From NCBI GenBank assembly GCA_004212155.1, contig RXIG01000008.1, forward strand, positions 31,827 through 95,826: 64,000 bases of DNA. The letters run 5' to 3'. The notes beneath the pieces are model-generated. The model did no database searches. It was not told the DNA's origin and worked only from the letters and a program-made list of their open reading frames with translations. Below are positions 25,568 through 34,302 of this stretch, piece after piece. Source of the DNA: an archaeon (GTDB taxonomy: Archaea > Methanobacteriota_B > Thermococci > Methanofastidiosales > NM3). Both the position numbers and the translations under genes were made by a program. Every line of letters starts with the position of its first letter. The stretch's first letter is position 1.

Positions 25568-26422
25568 ATGAACGTGCTCTTCTGCGGAAACATGAATCAC
25601 GACATCATACTCGTGGTCCCGCGCTTCCCCGAGTTTCACGAGAAGCTCTCAGTGGAAACGTACTACGAGGGCGAGGGCGGGTCGGCTGCCAACACGTGCT
25701 GGTGGTATGCGGGCCTCGGCGGGAGTGCGCGCATGTGCGGAGCCGTCGGACAGGACGCGCGGGGGGATGCCTGCGTGCGTTCGCTCGCACACAATGGCGT
25801 CGACACGAGCCATGTCGTGCGGGCAGATGCGCCCACCGGTCTCGCCGTCGCCATGTCGTGCGGGCAGGACAAGCGCATGGTCAAGGTGAACGGCGCCAAC
25901 GACCATGTGCGCTGCACGCGCGAGGCACTCGGGGACGTCGGCCACCTTCATCTCTCATCGGTGGCAAGAGACGTGGCAAACGAGGCGATGCGCCTCGCCC
26001 GCGACGCGGGCGCCACCGTATCGTGGGACCCTTCGGAGCGTCTCTACGAGGACCTGCTGCCGCTTGTCGACATCCTCTTCATCAACGAGGACGACCATGC
26101 GCGGATGAATGCGAAAGGACACCTGCCTCCGACAGTGGTCGTCACGAAAAATGAAGGTGGCTGTGTCATCAACGACACGACCGATGTCCCCTCATACGGA
26201 TCGGACGCCGTCGACACCACGGGCGCGGGGGATGCGTTCGACGCAGGCTATCTCCACGCACTCCATGCGGGCTGTGATCCCTGGGAATGTGGCATGTGGG
26301 GCGTCGTTTGCGCATCGTTTAATGTCGCGCGCATCGGCGCACGCGACGGGTTCTCAAGCAGGGACGACATCAGCGCCACCGCACGGCGCATGATCAGGGG
26401 CCTGCGTGCATCATCTCGTTGA
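25568..26422 (+). CDS. PfkB family carbohydrate/nucleoside kinase
   Basis: GGSAAN, GAVGQD..G, DTTGAGDAF. Confidence 0.9.
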   Translation: MNVLFCGNMNHDIILVVPRFPEFHEKLSVETYYEGEGGSAANTCWWYAGLGGSARMCGAVGQDARGDACVRSLAHNGVDTSHVVRADAPTGLAVAMSCGQDKRMVKVNGANDHVRCTREALGDVGHLHLSSVARDVANEAMRLARDAGATVSWDPSERLYEDLLPLVDILFINEDDHARMNAKGHLPPTVVVTKNEGGCVINDTTDVPSYGSDAVDTTGAGDAFDAGYLHALHAGCDPWECGMWGVVCASFNVARIGARDGFSSRDDISATARRMIRGLRASSR

Positions 26423-26873
26423 AATCGTCGAATCGTTCGAAGTGCTTGATCGCTGTGAGCTCGGCGTCGAGCAGATGGAAGTGTGACGCCTCCATCTCGG
26501 AGAGGTAGCGCAGCAGCGCGCTTTCCTCAGCTCCCTCCACCACCTCGGCAAGCGAAGCGTAGAATCTGCGAGCCGCGTCCTCGCCGCCCTTGGCGAGCTC
26601 AAAAAGCTCTGAGAGCGACTTCTCGGGGTCGAAGGCAAGCGATGGAAGCTCGAGCGACTCCATGCGTTCGCTCGACACTGTGGCCGAGACGCCCTTTCGC
26701 TTCATGAGCGCGGCGATGGCGTTCTTGTGGCGCCCTTCCTCCTCGGCGAGCCCGGCGATCTGCTCCTTCAAAAAGTACTGGTCCGTCTTGTTCTTGAGGT
26801 GAAGGTAGAACGTCTGCGCTTCAGCCTCCGATGTAATAGCGATCTGCAAAATATCCTTTACCGTATATCCCAT
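26394..26873 (-). CDS. Ferritin-like / rubrerythrin diiron domain protein
   Basis: AITSE..A..FY, LAEEEGRH, E..A..FY, MEASH. Confidence 0.85.
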   Translation of the reverse strand: MGYTVKDILQIAITSEAEAQTFYLHLKNKTDQYFLKEQIAGLAEEEGRHKNAIAALMKRKGVSATVSSERMESLELPSLAFDPEKSLSELFELAKGGEDAARRFYASLAEVVEGAEESALLRYLSEMEASHFHLLDAELTAIKHFERFDDFNEMMHAGP

Positions 26874-26881
26874 TTGTTCAC

Positions 26882-28054
26882 CTACCTGTCGAAAAATCCC
26901 TTTGGCGTGAGCGGTGACATCCTCCTCAACCGGTCCACGACCGGCGGCAGCTTCTCCAGGAGGAAGTCGATATCGTCATCGGTGGTCAAGCGGCCCATGT
27001 TGAACTGGACCGACCCGTGCGCCTCCTCGTTGGACTGGCCGATCGCCGAGAGCACGTGCGACGCCGAGAGAGTCTTCGAAGAGCATGCGGAGCCTGTGGA
27101 TGCGGCGATGCCGTAATTGGAAAGCGAGAGCAGCATCGCTTCTCCCTCTATGTAGTCGAAGAGGAAGTTGACGTTGTTTGGCACGCGCTGCTGCCTGTCG
27201 CCGTTGAGGTGCGTGTCGGGAATGGCCTCGAAGGCGCCGTCGATGAGCTTCGTCTGAAGGTGCGAGAGGTGCGCGATGTCGCGTGTAAGGCGCCTTTGCG
27301 CAAGCTCTGCCGCAGCGCCCATGCCCACGATGCCAGCCACGTTCTCGGTGCCGGAGCGAATGCCCCATTCCTGTCCGCCGCCATGCATCACCGGCTCGAT
27401 GCGCACGCCGCGCCTGATGTAGAGCGCGCCCATGCCCTTGGGACCGTAGATATCATTTGACGAAAGCGTGATCAGGTCGGCACCGCAGTCATTGGCATCG
27501 ACGAGGATGCGCCCCACGGCAGCGGTCGCATCGGTATGAACGGGGATGTTGCGCTCATGCGCCCGCTCGGCGATCTCCTTGATGGGCTGCACGGTGCCTA
27601 TCTCGTTGTTTGCAAACATTACCGATACGAGGACCGTCTCTTCGGTCATGGCATCCGCCACTGCATCTGCATCGACGATGCCGTTTGGCTCCACCGGCAC
27701 GCGGGTCACCTCGAATCCCTCCTTTTCCAACGCCTTGAGCGGCGTGTGGACGGCCCAGTGCTCGATGTTGGTGGTCACGATATGGGTGCCGCGCCTCCTT
27801 GCGCGGCGTGCCACGCCCTTGAGGGCGAGGTTGTTCGATTCGGTGGCCCCCGACGTGAAGACGACCTTGTCGCCCTCGCCGGCACCAACAAACGACACGA
27901 CCTGAGCGCGTGCGGCCTCGACCGCTTCGCGCACTGCATCGCCGTATTCGTGCAGTGAGGAGGGGTTACCAAAATGAGTGGTAAAGAAGGGCTTCATGGC
28001 CTCGAAGACCTGTTCGTCGACAGGCATGCCGGCCCCGTAGTCGAAGTAGAGCAT
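26882..28054 (-). CDS. iscS: Cysteine desulfurase IscS/NifS
   Basis: YFDY, GNPSS.H, FTSGATESNN, GGGQE, RSGTEN, STGSACSS. Confidence 0.93.
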   Translation of the reverse strand: MLYFDYGAGMPVDEQVFEAMKPFFTTHFGNPSSLHEYGDAVREAVEAARAQVVSFVGAGEGDKVVFTSGATESNNLALKGVARRARRRGTHIVTTNIEHWAVHTPLKALEKEGFEVTRVPVEPNGIVDADAVADAMTEETVLVSVMFANNEIGTVQPIKEIAERAHERNIPVHTDATAAVGRILVDANDCGADLITLSSNDIYGPKGMGALYIRRGVRIEPVMHGGGQEWGIRSGTENVAGIVGMGAAAELAQRRLTRDIAHLSHLQTKLIDGAFEAIPDTHLNGDRQQRVPNNVNFLFDYIEGEAMLLSLSNYGIAASTGSACSSKTLSASHVLSAIGQSNEEAHGSVQFNMGRLTTDDDIDFLLEKLPPVVDRLRRMSPLTPKGFFDR

Positions 28055-28062
28055 GGTATCAC

Positions 28063-32925: not shown

Positions 32926-32931
32926 GTTGTG

Positions 32932-34119
32932 CTACTCCTTGAGCAAGCGGGCGAACTCGCGGCCGAACTCCTCGCACGATGCGAGCTCCTCGCTTGTCGG
33001 CACCCATTTGAGCTCGAGGGGTTCGCGAACGACGTCGATGCCGCTGTCCTGGAGCATCTCCTCGATGGCGGCGCACGCGCCGCCGCCCCAGCCGTAGGAG
33101 CCGAATGCGGCACCTTTCTTCTTCTTGGGACGGAGTCCCTTCATGTAGGTAAGGAACCCTCCAACGAGCGGGTACATGCCGTTGTTGAGCGTTGGCGACC
33201 CGACAAGCACGCCCTTGCTCTCGAGCATCTCGGTGATGACATAGCTCTTTTCCGTGTCGCGCAGGCGCATCAGCCTGACCGCCACGCCCTCGGACTGTAT
33301 GCCCTCGGCAATCGCTTTGGCCATCTTCTCGGTCGAATTCCACATCGTGTCGTATGCGATGACGACGCGGTCGGTGGCGGCGCCGGATGCCCATTTGGCA
33401 TACCATGTAACGATCTGTGTCGGGTCGTCGCGCCATATGACGCCGTGGTCGGGCGCGATGACGTCGATCTCGATGCCCATCGACTGCACGCGCTCGATAA
33501 GGCGCGATATGAGCGGGCTGTAGAGCCAGAGGATGTTTGCGTAATAATCCCCTGCGACGTGATAGAGGGTCGAGGGATCGACCTCGTCGTTGAATCGCTC
33601 GGACGACGCAATGTGCTGGCCGAACGCATCAGAGGAGAACACCACGTGGTCCTCAACAAGATACGACATCATCGAGTCGGGCCAGTGGAGCATCGGCGTC
33701 TTGATGAACTGCAGCGTCTTTGATCCGAGCGAGATCGAATCGCCGTCATCGACCACCGTGATGTCGTTGGTGGTGCCAAAGTGCTTCTGCAGTTCCTCGC
33801 GGCCCTCCTCGGTCGCGAGTATCGTTGCGTTTGGAAGCATGCCGGCAACGACGGGAAACGACCCTGAATGGTCCATCTCCACATGATTGACCACGAGGTA
33901 ATCGATCTTGTCCAGGTCGACGATCTCCTTCACGCGAGCAAGGAACTCGTCCTTGAACGGGCGCTTGACCGTGTCGATGAGGGCGATCTTCTCGTCGATG
34001 ACGAGATATGCATTGTACGTCGTCCCATAGGGCGTCTTATACCCATGGAAGTCGCGGATGTTCCAGTCGATGGCGCCGACCCAGTATATACCTTTCTTGA
34101 TCTCGACAGTGTTCATCAT
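32932..34119 (-). CDS. fprA: Flavodiiron protein FprA (O2/NO reductase)
   Basis: GTTYNAYL, NHVEMDHSG, HWPDSM, SDAFGQH, flavodoxin domain FGSYGWGG. Confidence 0.95.
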   Translation of the reverse strand: MMNTVEIKKGIYWVGAIDWNIRDFHGYKTPYGTTYNAYLVIDEKIALIDTVKRPFKDEFLARVKEIVDLDKIDYLVVNHVEMDHSGSFPVVAGMLPNATILATEEGREELQKHFGTTNDITVVDDGDSISLGSKTLQFIKTPMLHWPDSMMSYLVEDHVVFSSDAFGQHIASSERFNDEVDPSTLYHVAGDYYANILWLYSPLISRLIERVQSMGIEIDVIAPDHGVIWRDDPTQIVTWYAKWASGAATDRVVIAYDTMWNSTEKMAKAIAEGIQSEGVAVRLMRLRDTEKSYVITEMLESKGVLVGSPTLNNGMYPLVGGFLTYMKGLRPKKKKGAAFGSYGWGGGACAAIEEMLQDSGIDVVREPLELKWVPTSEELASCEEFGREFARLLKE

Positions 34120-34185
34120 ATATCACCACAAATCTATGTAGATTATGAAAATGAATAAGAAAATGGATAATAAAAAATAGTCGTC

Positions 34186-34302
34186 TTACTCCCTGAGGCG
34201 CATCTTGACGCCGCAGCATACGAGCGTGCCGCCGCCGGATTCCATGACCTGAACGACATTGCCGCAAATATCACAAACGTATATTTCTCCTTGCTTAGTC
34301 AT
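34186..34302 (-). CDS. Desulforedoxin (38 aa, FeCys4)
   Basis: Hand translation [48 protein letters not shown]. Confidence 0.92.

What the first reader, a model, noticed from the sequence alone, without database searches (positions are those of the whole stretch)
26394..34302. Complete NifB inside an oxygen-stress/copper/sulfur-relay gene string, with no nifHDK in the window
Seen: 32047-32925 has all NifB signature motifs (HPC, Cx3Cx2C, ExRP, AGPG, TxTxN, CxxCRxDAxG). It lies 6 nt after fprA and 24 nt before copA, in a same-strand run: desulforedoxin, fprA, nifB, copA, rubrerythrin-like, YHS, ArsR, tusA, dsrE, iscS, rubrerythrin-like. Peroxiredoxin and nfu are within 2 kb of the run. No nifH/D/K/E/N or mcr genes are in 64 kb. 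Known: NifB fuses two [4Fe-4S] clusters into the carbide-containing [8Fe-9S-C] cluster, and homologues serve non-nitrogenase uses (MarB; from recollection, the methanogen MCR activation complex). Inference: this may be a stress-induced module that rebuilds or protects a carbide Fe-S cluster for an unknown client, with IscS/TusA/DsrE/Nfu supplying sulfur and clusters, and FprA and CopA removing O2/NO and Cu.
Basis: partly seen in the sequence, partly recalled or inferred. Interest (0 to 1): 0.75.

Follow-up and report, generated by a model that had tools for sequence, protein, structure and literature searches.

The report
Methanogen NifB inside an oxygen-defence operon
This is a genuine nifB gene in an uncultured methane-producing archaeon that most likely builds the iron-sulfur-carbide clusters needed to switch on its methane-forming enzyme, so the missing nitrogenase is normal; the one unusual point is that the gene lies in an operon with oxygen- and copper-defence genes.

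Summary

The "unknown client" is not needed. The window comes from a 1.49-Mb, 89.8%-complete genome of a Methanofastidiosales-like archaeon. That genome encodes mcrA and all five tested parts of the MCR activation complex: Mmp17, Mmp7, Mmp3, A2 and McrC. All six published L-cluster ligands of McrC and Mmp7 are conserved. NifB in nitrogenase-free methanogens, serving this complex, is already in print.

What is left is the gene context.
- Dx-FprA-NifB-CopA is conserved in 7 of 7 genomes of the family. A control shows the surrounding ~20 kb is equally syntenic there, so this alone is weak evidence.
- The sister family keeps NifB near a divergent FprA plus rubrerythrin, in a different order, in 11 of 11 assessable genomes.
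- A third clade, known only from metagenomes, sometimes has FprA divergent from NifB.
- The genome has one FprA and one NifB, 6 nt apart.

Co-expression of L-cluster synthesis with O2 and Cu defence is therefore plausible but untested. I class this as a new member of a known kind, of modest interest.

The parts
34186..34302 (-). Desulforedoxin-like small iron protein (38 aa, CxxC...CC). Probable electron donor to FprA and first gene of the run.
   Evidence: PF06397 E 2.6e-14. TIGR00319. Start at M22 read from the translation. Relatives align only from residue 21-22 onward.
32932..34119 (-). Class A flavodiiron protein FprA (O2/NO reductase). The only FprA homologue in the genome.
   Evidence: ODP + Flavodoxin_1 domains. 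Best solved relative is Moorella FprA 1ycf at 437 bits, against F420H2 oxidase 2ohh at 333 bits. Single tblastn hit in the genome.
32047..32925 (-). Stand-alone NifB (292 aa), a radical-SAM [8Fe-9S-C] cluster synthase. The only NifB in the genome. Starts 6 nt after the fprA stop and ends 24 nt before the copA start.
   Evidence: TIGR01290 272.7 bits over profile positions 7-279 of 441. PDB 7bi7 E 2.4e-93 over residues 11-285, with all cysteines aligned. Motifs seen in the translation. One match in the genome.
29677..32022 (-). Copper-exporting P1B-type ATPase CopA with two N-terminal HMA domains.
   Evidence: E1-E2_ATPase, Hydrolase and 2 x HMA. TIGR01511 618.6 bits, above its cut-off.
29166..29660 (-). 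Rubrerythrin-family diiron protein without a rubredoxin domain.
   Evidence: PF02915 E 6.2e-16.
29013..29153 (-). 46-aa YHS-domain (metal-binding) protein.
   Evidence: PF04945 E 3.3e-13. ORF seen. Homologues in L004 and L050.
28652..28978 (-). ArsR/SmtB-family regulator with a Cys-rich C-terminus. The likely start is M51 of the longer ORF.
   Evidence: HTH_5 E 1.5e-12. NF033788 66.2 bits, above its cut-off. Translation.
28419..28694 (-). TusA-type sulfur carrier. The start is uncertain; the domain covers residues 89-157 of the long ORF.
   Evidence: PF01206 E 1.6e-20. Translation.
28063..28422 (-). DsrE-family sulfur-relay protein.
   Evidence: PF02635 E 4.1e-17 and PF13686 E 8.3e-19.
26882..28054 (-). 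Class V cysteine desulfurase (NifS/IscS type). A second copy lies elsewhere in the genome.
   Evidence: PF00266 E 3.4e-78. TIGR03402 486 bits, below its cut-off of 530.75. Paralogue on C15 at 49% identity.
26394..26873 (-). Second rubrerythrin-family protein, last gene of the run.
   Evidence: PF02915 E 6.9e-14.
35016..35690 (+). 1-Cys-type peroxiredoxin, divergent from the run. This position is conserved in relatives.
   Evidence: AhpC-TSA + 1-cysPrx_C. NF009668 356.5 bits, above its cut-off. Same divergent position in L004, L005 and L006.
36058..36294 (-). Nfu-type (NifU C-terminal domain) Fe-S carrier.
   Evidence: PF01106 E 1.7e-31. Kept nearby in L003, L005 and L006.

Best explanation
The gene is the organism's single, housekeeping NifB. 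It is a stand-alone radical-SAM enzyme that fuses two [4Fe-4S] clusters into the carbide-containing [8Fe-9S-C] cluster.

The host is an MCR-encoding archaeon of a Methanofastidiosales-like order. The client is most likely the ATP-driven MCR activation complex (McrC, Mmp7, Mmp17, Mmp3, A2), which is encoded on two other contigs, and not a nitrogenase or an unknown enzyme.

In this family nifB is packed between fprA and copA, in a run that starts with desulforedoxin, so it is most likely transcribed together with them. I infer that this ties the synthesis of a very oxygen- and copper-labile cluster to the enzymes that remove O2/NO (Dx-FprA), peroxide (rubrerythrins, peroxiredoxin) and Cu(I) (CopA, YHS).

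Shown: gene identities, ligand conservation, presence of the client, and the distribution of the gene order.
Inferred: which client NifB serves, co-transcription, and any stress regulation.
For: NifB identity:
- Full-length match to solved M. thermautotrophicus NifB (7bi7, E 2.4e-93), with the nine cysteines and the HPC histidine aligned.
- All motifs present.
- Only one copy in the genome.

Client present in the same genome:
- mcrA at C12:56492.
- Mmp17, Mmp7 and Mmp3 in a row at C12:49994-52921.
- A2 followed by McrC at C15:68281-70448.
- The review PMC13474568 (passages) names the L-cluster ligands as McrC Cys12, His49, Cys55, His118 and Mmp7 His84, Cys143. All six are conserved in the genome's McrC and Mmp7 when aligned to chains 8s7v_I and 8s7v_H (I counted positions by hand, assuming a 36-residue tag offset in chain I).

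Literature:
- PMC12176620 (passages) says NifB is essential in methanogens lacking nitrogenase and is probably involved in forming the clusters for MCR activation.

Co-occurrence in the order (34 genomes):
- f1: NifB 7/7, mcrA 7/7, Mmp7 6/7.
- f3: NifB 13/17, mcrA 16/17, Mmp7 17/17.
- f2: 0/6 for all three.

Gene context:
- FprA->NifB in 7 of 7 f1 genomes. NifB->CopA in 6 of 6 assessable f1 genomes.
- NifB, then FprA (~34% identical) and Rbr within 0.3-1.6 kb downstream, in 11 of 11 assessable f3 genomes.
- 11 of 80 metagenome NifB loci have an FprA neighbour, and all 11 fall in three NifB clades.
- One FprA and one NifB per genome.
- In M. ruminantium under lauric-acid stress, nifB (+2.58), fprA2 (+3.58) and rbr2 (+1.27) rose together (table passage in PMC5816558).
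Against: - No experiment links this NifB to MCR activation. The link is proposed in print, not proven.
- Four of 17 f3 genomes with mcrA show no NifB at E <= 1e-40, one of them 98% complete. Three f4 genomes have NifB but neither mcrA nor Mmp7. So co-occurrence is imperfect.
- Within f1 the synteny is not specific. M18 aminopeptidase, Nfu, LonB, PPDK and PfkB keep their places too, so the conserved order there may be inheritance, not selection.
- In the third clade, five loci with at least 2 kb on both sides lack an FprA neighbour, although near-identical NifBs have one.
- The ArsR-TusA-DsrE-IscS tail is missing in G025 (L006).
- No RNA evidence of a joint transcript was obtained.
Confidence: 0.7

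Rival explanations
1. Housekeeping NifB whose neighbours mean nothing. The fprA-nifB-copA order is inherited gene order in a slowly rearranging region, with no regulatory or functional coupling to O2 or Cu defence.
For: The whole ~20-kb region is syntenic across the family, including M18, Nfu, LonB, PPDK and PfkB. The third clade shows the FprA neighbour in some members and not in near-identical others. 15 NifB loci outside the three clades, each with at least 2 kb on both sides, have no FprA neighbour.
Against: - The 6-nt and 24-nt spacers make separate transcription of nifB unlikely.
- The sister family keeps NifB beside a different, ~34%-identical FprA plus Rbr, in another order and among otherwise unrelated neighbours (histidine kinase, response regulator, rhodanese, AcnX).
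- With one FprA and one NifB in a 1.49-Mb genome, taken as roughly 1,500 genes, chance adjacency is about 2 in 1,500 (my estimate).
Confidence: 0.3
2. One reading: a stress-induced module that rebuilds or protects a carbide cluster for an as yet unknown client, with IscS/TusA/DsrE/Nfu as dedicated sulfur and cluster suppliers.
For: - No NifH-like or NifD/K-like gene in the genome.
- Tight same-strand packing of all eleven genes.
- Relatives in family f4 carry NifB with no mcrA, no Mmp7 and, in two of three, no NifD/K-like gene. So NifB clients other than MCR activation and nitrogenase probably exist somewhere in this order.
Against: - A known client is fully encoded here, with its ligands intact.
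- There is only one NifB, so it must serve that client if the published model is right.
- The sulfur-relay tail is not conserved.
Confidence: 0.08
3. NifB serves a nitrogenase-like enzyme that is missing from this incomplete assembly, such as the NifH-plus-D/K-like set seen in relative G025.
For: - The genome is 89.8% complete.
- Its cfbC/cfbD also seem to fall in an assembly gap. In same-genus G029 they lie about 2.2 kb from a segment whose match in this genome sits 764 nt from the start of contig C11.
- G025 has an extra NifH-like gene next to two PF00148 genes.
Against: - Same-genus G029 (96% complete) has only one NifH-like and one short PF00148 match, the CfbCD pattern.
- CfbD is stated not to contain [8Fe-9S-C] clusters (PMC12176620 passage).
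Confidence: 0.04

Closest known systems
Stand-alone NifB of methanogens (Methanothermobacter thermautotrophicus, PDB 7bi7/7jma/7jmb; Methanothrix thermoacetophila, PDB 6y1x)
   Same: Same single-domain architecture of about 290 aa without a NifX-like domain. Aligns over the full length (E 2.4e-93 to 7bi7; 1.7e-78 to 6y1x), with all cluster cysteines matched. Also encoded away from any nif operon.
   Different: Different gene context. By the passage in PMC12176620, nifB of M. marburgensis follows a cluster of mmp genes. Here it sits between fprA and copA, on a different contig from the mmp genes.
MCR activation complex of Methanococcus maripaludis (PDB 8s7v; McrC, Mmp7, Mmp17, Mmp3, A2 with three [8Fe-9S-C]-like clusters)
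   Same: All five tested components are encoded in this genome, and the six reported cluster ligands of McrC and Mmp7 are conserved.
   Different: Nothing has been shown biochemically for this lineage. Gene order differs (Mmp17-Mmp7-Mmp3 near mcrA; A2-McrC elsewhere). PMC12176620 (figure-legend passage) lists Methanofastidiosa among the Euryarchaeal sequences that group with Proteoarchaeota in its trees, which it reads as horizontal acquisitions also seen in the MCR phylogeny.
Heterocyst protection of nitrogenase by flavodiiron protein Flv3B and rubrerythrin RbrA (Anabaena PCC 7120)
   Same: The same logic: an O2-reducing flavodiiron protein and a rubrerythrin expressed where an oxygen-labile nitrogenase-type metallocluster system works (passages in PMC6616624).
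   Different: That case is cell-type-specific expression in a bacterium protecting nitrogenase itself. Here it is an archaeal operon in which the cluster synthase gene is physically embedded among the defence genes, and protection is only inferred.

Membership tests
NifB (radical-SAM [8Fe-9S-C] cluster synthase) | Radical-SAM Cx3Cx2C motif | tested here: met
   CNIQCMFC at residues 42-49. It aligns with the motif of 7bi7 and is invariant in 11 relatives.
NifB (radical-SAM [8Fe-9S-C] cluster synthase) | Additional Cys/His ligands for the two K-cluster modules (HPC, C after the RS motif, C in the xCxxTNG region, C-terminal TC and CxxC) | tested here: met
   H20/C22, C56, C120, C245, C265 and C268 each align with a Cys or His of 7bi7. 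All except C56 are invariant in alignment A1. C56 is the consensus residue there.
NifB (radical-SAM [8Fe-9S-C] cluster synthase) | Score above the curated cut-off of the NifB equivalog model TIGR01290 | tested here: inconclusive
   272.7 bits against a cut-off of 343.65. The match covers only profile positions 7-279 of 441, because the model includes the NifX-like domain that stand-alone archaeal NifBs lack. At E <= 1e-40 the two control methanogens match, and only one of them is over the cut-off.
NifB (radical-SAM [8Fe-9S-C] cluster synthase) | SAM-dependent carbide insertion and L-cluster formation | not testable with these tools
   Needs a biochemical assay or genetic complementation.
Client: MCR activation complex | McrC present with ligands Cys12, His49, Cys55, His118 | tested here: met
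   TIGR03264 298.4 bits, above its cut-off. Alignment to 8s7v_I shows all four conserved. Ligand list from the PMC13474568 passage. Numbering assumes a 36-residue tag in the deposited chain.
Client: MCR activation complex | Mmp7 present with ligands His84 and Cys143 | tested here: met
   TIGR03274 337.4 bits, just under its cut-off of 349.15. Alignment to 8s7v_H shows both conserved.
Client: MCR activation complex | Mmp17, Mmp3, A2 and MCR itself encoded | tested here: met
   Mmp17 88.5 bits, Mmp3 443.9 bits and A2 724.6 bits, all above their cut-offs. mcrA 211.1 bits.
Client: nitrogenase or nitrogenase-like reductase (NifHDK, Mar, Nfl) | NifH-family and NifD/K-family genes in the genome | tested here: not met
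   No PF00142 and no PF00148 match in the 28 contigs. The genome is 89.8% complete, so absence is not proven.
Class A flavodiiron protein (FprA) | Metallo-beta-lactamase-like diiron domain followed by a flavodoxin domain | tested here: met
   ODP at residues 35-226 and Flavodoxin_1 at 254-385. 1ycf E 7.2e-130 over residues 5-391. The electron donor (rubredoxin-type or F420H2) was not tested.

The most novel reading that the evidence does not exclude
In Methanofastidiosales and a related uncultured clade, L-cluster biosynthesis is wired into the oxidative and copper stress response. After an O2 or Cu insult the cell would co-induce Dx-FprA, rubrerythrins, CopA and NifB. NifB would rebuild the oxidation-labile [8Fe-9S-C] clusters of the MCR activation complex so that oxidised MCR can be re-reduced. 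The labile ninth sulfur is noted in PMC13474568. In some members TusA/DsrE/IscS would supply sulfur. This would be the first regulatory link between oxygen defence and the repair of the methane-forming machinery.
Probability: 0.22. Interest if true: 0.6.

Novelty: new member of a known kind. Interest (0 to 1): 0.33.

Why it matters
The main reading is ordinary: nifB without nitrogenase is what a methanogen is expected to have since the 2023-2025 work on NifB essentiality and the MCR activation complex.

The gene context is a small but testable lead. No paper I found addresses how methanogens protect or rebuild these clusters after oxygen exposure. Here the only nifB is packed 6 nt behind the only flavodiiron oxygen reductase gene.

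If the coupling is real, it points to a recovery pathway for methanogenesis after oxygen stress. That is relevant to methane emission from habitats that are oxygenated from time to time.

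Tried and rejected
- RNA evidence. Two RNA-library runs (X14, X20; Logan contigs) gave short pieces on nifB and copA, for example 32500-32674 with no mismatch in X20 and 30229-30393 in X14. No RNA contig bridged a gene junction, DNA carry-over cannot be excluded, and no run held half of the sampled words. 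So this is no evidence for or against co-transcription.
- Bacterial promoter and terminator scan. It is not applicable to an archaeon, and terminator-like sites were not above the shuffles (4 found against a mean of 6.6).
- Alignment of the regions upstream of Dx from five family members. It shows only an A/T-rich TTAATA-like element and a short shared word between the two same-genus genomes. This is a candidate TATA box, not a demonstrated operator.
- Taxon of the third NifB clade. One locus (L061) carries YcaO-TfuA next to it. I recall these as MCR thioglycine-modification genes; that identification comes from no call.
- Small ORFs between the divergent FprA and NifB in clade-3 loci look spurious: no Pfam hit, and low-complexity translations.
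- The careful tree search did not finish, so the quick IQ-TREE tree was used.
- I could not reach methanogens of other phyla with the genome tools, so how far NifB-FprA adjacency extends outside these clades is open.
- Literature searches for NifB with Methanofastidiosa, with FprA, or with rubrerythrin and oxidative stress found no paper describing this gene order. The terms neighbor, synteny, adjacent and oxidative do not occur in the Saini preprint. Flavodiiron and neighborhood do not occur in the 2026 review.
- bioRxiv supplements, including the preprint's full presence/absence tree, were not seen.

Full report
OBSERVATION

The minus strand between 26394 and 34302 carries eleven closely spaced genes, named by Pfam and NCBIfam:
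- desulforedoxin-like Dx, 34186-34302 (the start is M22 of the longer ORF)
- flavodiiron protein FprA, 32932-34119
- NifB, 32047-32925
- CopA, 29677-32022
- a rubrerythrin-family protein, 29166-29660
- a 46-aa YHS-domain protein, 29013-29153 (PF04945, E 3.3e-13)
- an ArsR/SmtB regulator, 28652-28978
- TusA, 28419-~28694
- DsrE, 28063-28422
- a NifS/IscS-type cysteine desulfurase, 26882-28054
- a second rubrerythrin-family protein, 26394-26873

A peroxiredoxin (35016-35690, +) is divergent from the run. An Nfu-type carrier (36058-36294, -) lies close by. The spacers are 66 nt (dx-fprA), 6 nt (fprA-nifB), 24 nt (nifB-copA), and 16 nt or less, or overlaps, for most of the rest (coordinates).

It aligns from residue 11 to 285 with the solved stand-alone NifB of Methanothermobacter thermautotrophicus (7bi7, E 2.4e-93), with each cysteine matched. 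It scores below the TIGR01290 cut-off (272.7 against 343.65). That is because the model includes the NifX-like domain, and the match covers only profile positions 7-279 of 441.

THE ORGANISM AND THE CLIENT

The window is part of contig C9 of a 1.49-Mb genome in 28 contigs, 89.8% complete. Record titles of close relatives read Methanomicrobia archaeon, Thermococci archaeon and Candidatus Methanofastidiosia archaeon.

The genome has no NifH-family and no NifD/K-family match and a single NifB. It does encode:
- mcrA, C12:56492-56872
- Mmp17, Mmp7 and Mmp3 in a row, C12:49994-52921
- A2 followed by McrC, C15:68281-70448

These are the components of the ATP-driven MCR activation complex. Passages of PMC12176620 say that NifB is essential in methanogens even without nitrogenase and is probably involved in forming the Fe-S clusters for MCR activation. 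The Saini et al. preprint (abstract) says NifB is conserved across methanogens. A passage of the 2026 review PMC13474568 names the ligands of the three L-cluster-like cofactors: McrC Cys12, His49, Cys55, His118 and Mmp7 His84, Cys143. Aligning this genome's McrC and Mmp7 to chains 8s7v_I and 8s7v_H shows all six conserved.

The missing cfbC/cfbD is probably an assembly gap. In the same-genus genome G029 these genes lie about 2.2 kb from a segment whose match in this genome begins 764 nt from the start of contig C11.

DISTRIBUTION IN THE ORDER

The order has 34 genomes in four families.

| Family | NifB (E <= 1e-40) | mcrA | Mmp7 |
|---|---|---|---|
| f1 (includes this genome) | 7/7 | 7/7 | 6/7 |
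| f2 | 0/6 | 0/6 | 0/6 |
| f3 | 13/17 | 16/17 | 17/17 |
| f4 | 3/4 | 0/4 | 0/4 |

The match is good but not perfect. Four f3 genomes with mcrA lack a NifB hit, one of them rated 98% complete. Three f4 genomes have NifB without MCR or Mmp7, and two of those also lack any NifD/K-like gene.

GENE ORDER

Family f1. FprA is followed directly by NifB in 7 of 7 genomes. NifB is followed by CopA in 6 of 6 assessable genomes; the G028 contig ends inside nifB. NifB identity falls as low as 61%. One metagenome contig (L050) shows the same order.

Control. The surrounding region is just as syntenic in this family. M18 aminopeptidase, Nfu, a small unknown ORF, LonB and PPDK on one side, and PfkB and the BtuF-like binding protein on the other, keep their places in the same loci. 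Within-family conservation is therefore weak evidence of functional coupling. The tail varies: ArsR-TusA-IscS-Rbr is present in G027, G025 has only the two rubrerythrins, and other contigs end too early to tell.

Family f3. NifB is followed on the same strand, 0.3 to 1.6 kb downstream, by a divergent FprA (about 34% identical over its full length) and a rubrerythrin. This holds in 11 of 11 assessable genomes; two contigs end too early. In some genomes a rhodanese-domain gene or an unknown gene lies between them on the opposite strand. The outer neighbours differ from f1: histidine kinase, response regulator and AcnX.

Metagenome loci. Of the 80 NifB loci fetched, 11 have an FprA neighbour: one in the f1 order, four in the f3 order, and six with FprA divergently oriented 0.3-0.5 kb upstream (L061, L064, L068, L069, L081, L094). 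L064 has FprA genes on both sides.

Tree. I built a quick maximum-likelihood NifB tree of 98 rows. Rows dropped from the 107 available: L003-L006, which duplicate G-handle loci, and five HSPs under 240 aa (L028, L029, L094, L096, L097). The careful search did not finish.
- The f1 order forms one clade (7 rows, support 100).
- The f3 order forms another (16 rows, support 100).
- The divergent order falls in a third clade of 18 rows (support 99). In that clade five loci with at least 2 kb on both sides have no FprA neighbour, even though their NifBs are almost identical to ones that do.
- Outside these three clades, none of 15 loci with at least 2 kb on both sides has an FprA neighbour.

The third clade's taxon is unknown. 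One of its loci carries YcaO-TfuA. This genome has exactly one FprA homologue. All three neighbour FprAs are class A flavodiiron proteins closest to Moorella FprA.

HOW IT MOST LIKELY WORKS

NifB makes the [8Fe-9S-C] clusters that McrC and Mmp7 bind. This rests on sequence and on published proposals, not on an assay.

In this family nifB has no room for a promoter of its own between fprA and copA. It is therefore probably transcribed from a promoter upstream of dx or fprA. An A/T-rich TTAATA-like element lies about 75-95 nt before the dx start and is shared with the same-genus relative.

The neighbours remove O2/NO (Dx as the likely donor to FprA), peroxide (rubrerythrins, peroxiredoxin) and Cu(I) (CopA, YHS protein, a Cys-rich ArsR regulator). 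All of these agents destroy exposed Fe-S clusters; that last point is established knowledge, not tested here. The review passage notes that the ninth sulfur of the L-cluster is labile under oxidising conditions.

One transcriptome table gives outside support. In Methanobrevibacter ruminantium under lauric-acid stress, nifB, fprA1, fprA2 and rbr2 were all up-regulated although the genes are not adjacent (PMC5816558, passage).

A known parallel is the protection of nitrogenase in heterocysts by flavodiiron protein Flv3B and rubrerythrin RbrA (PMC6616624, passages).

Co-transcription and stress induction remain inferences. The RNA-library contigs I could lay on the stretch did not bridge any junction.

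COMPARISON AND NOVELTY

The difference from the published cases is the context. In M. marburgensis nifB follows mmp genes (PMC12176620 passage). Here it is embedded in an oxygen and copper defence operon, and NifB-FprA proximity recurs in rearranged form in the sister family. My searches found no paper describing this.

I rate it a new member of a known kind, with a modest and testable regulatory lead.

VERDICT

- Observation: confirmed.
The placement is plausibly non-chance. The unknown client is replaced by the MCR activation complex. Stress induction is untested.
- Confidence in the best explanation: 0.70.
- Interest: 0.33.

Noticed in passing
L133:7599-9178 (G032) and L134:7850-9460 (G031): Two genomes of family f4 in the same order have an intact-looking NifB but no mcrA, no Mmp7 and no NifD/K-like gene. 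In both, nifB directly follows an ECF-transporter S-component-like membrane protein and an aldehyde dehydrogenase, next to a NiFe hydrogenase with its HycI protease. This looks like a true orphan NifB whose client is unknown.
   Followed up: partly
window 38074-38868 (-): A heliorhodopsin gene (PF18761, E 7.3e-96) in this anaerobic MCR-encoding archaeon, between an M18 aminopeptidase and LonB. The other family loci that reach this stretch (L005, L006) gave no tblastn hit to it.
   Followed up: no
G025:C7:44121-47532 (L032 covers part): A family relative has, besides cfbC/cfbD, a second NifH-like gene. It lies in one 729-aa open frame with a PF00148 domain, next to another PF00148 gene. This may be a fused nitrogenase-like reductase that is absent from the window's genome.
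   Followed up: no
window 34303-35015: The dx-peroxiredoxin intergenic region is about 710 nt here, against 130-190 nt in three relatives. It holds a 63-aa ORF (34568-34759, -) with a signal-peptide-like N-terminus and no family match, which may be a lineage-specific insertion.
   Followed up: partly
window 5652-12047 (-): A 2131-aa protein made largely of CarboxypepD_reg-like repeats, probably a giant surface protein, next to a 557-aa NEW3-domain protein.
   Followed up: no
G000 contig C11 start (outside the window): The cfbC/cfbD genes expected for F430 synthesis are missing from the assembly. By synteny with G029 they would lie just beyond the start of contig C11. The absence of NifH-like genes in this genome should therefore not be read as real.
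   Followed up: partly
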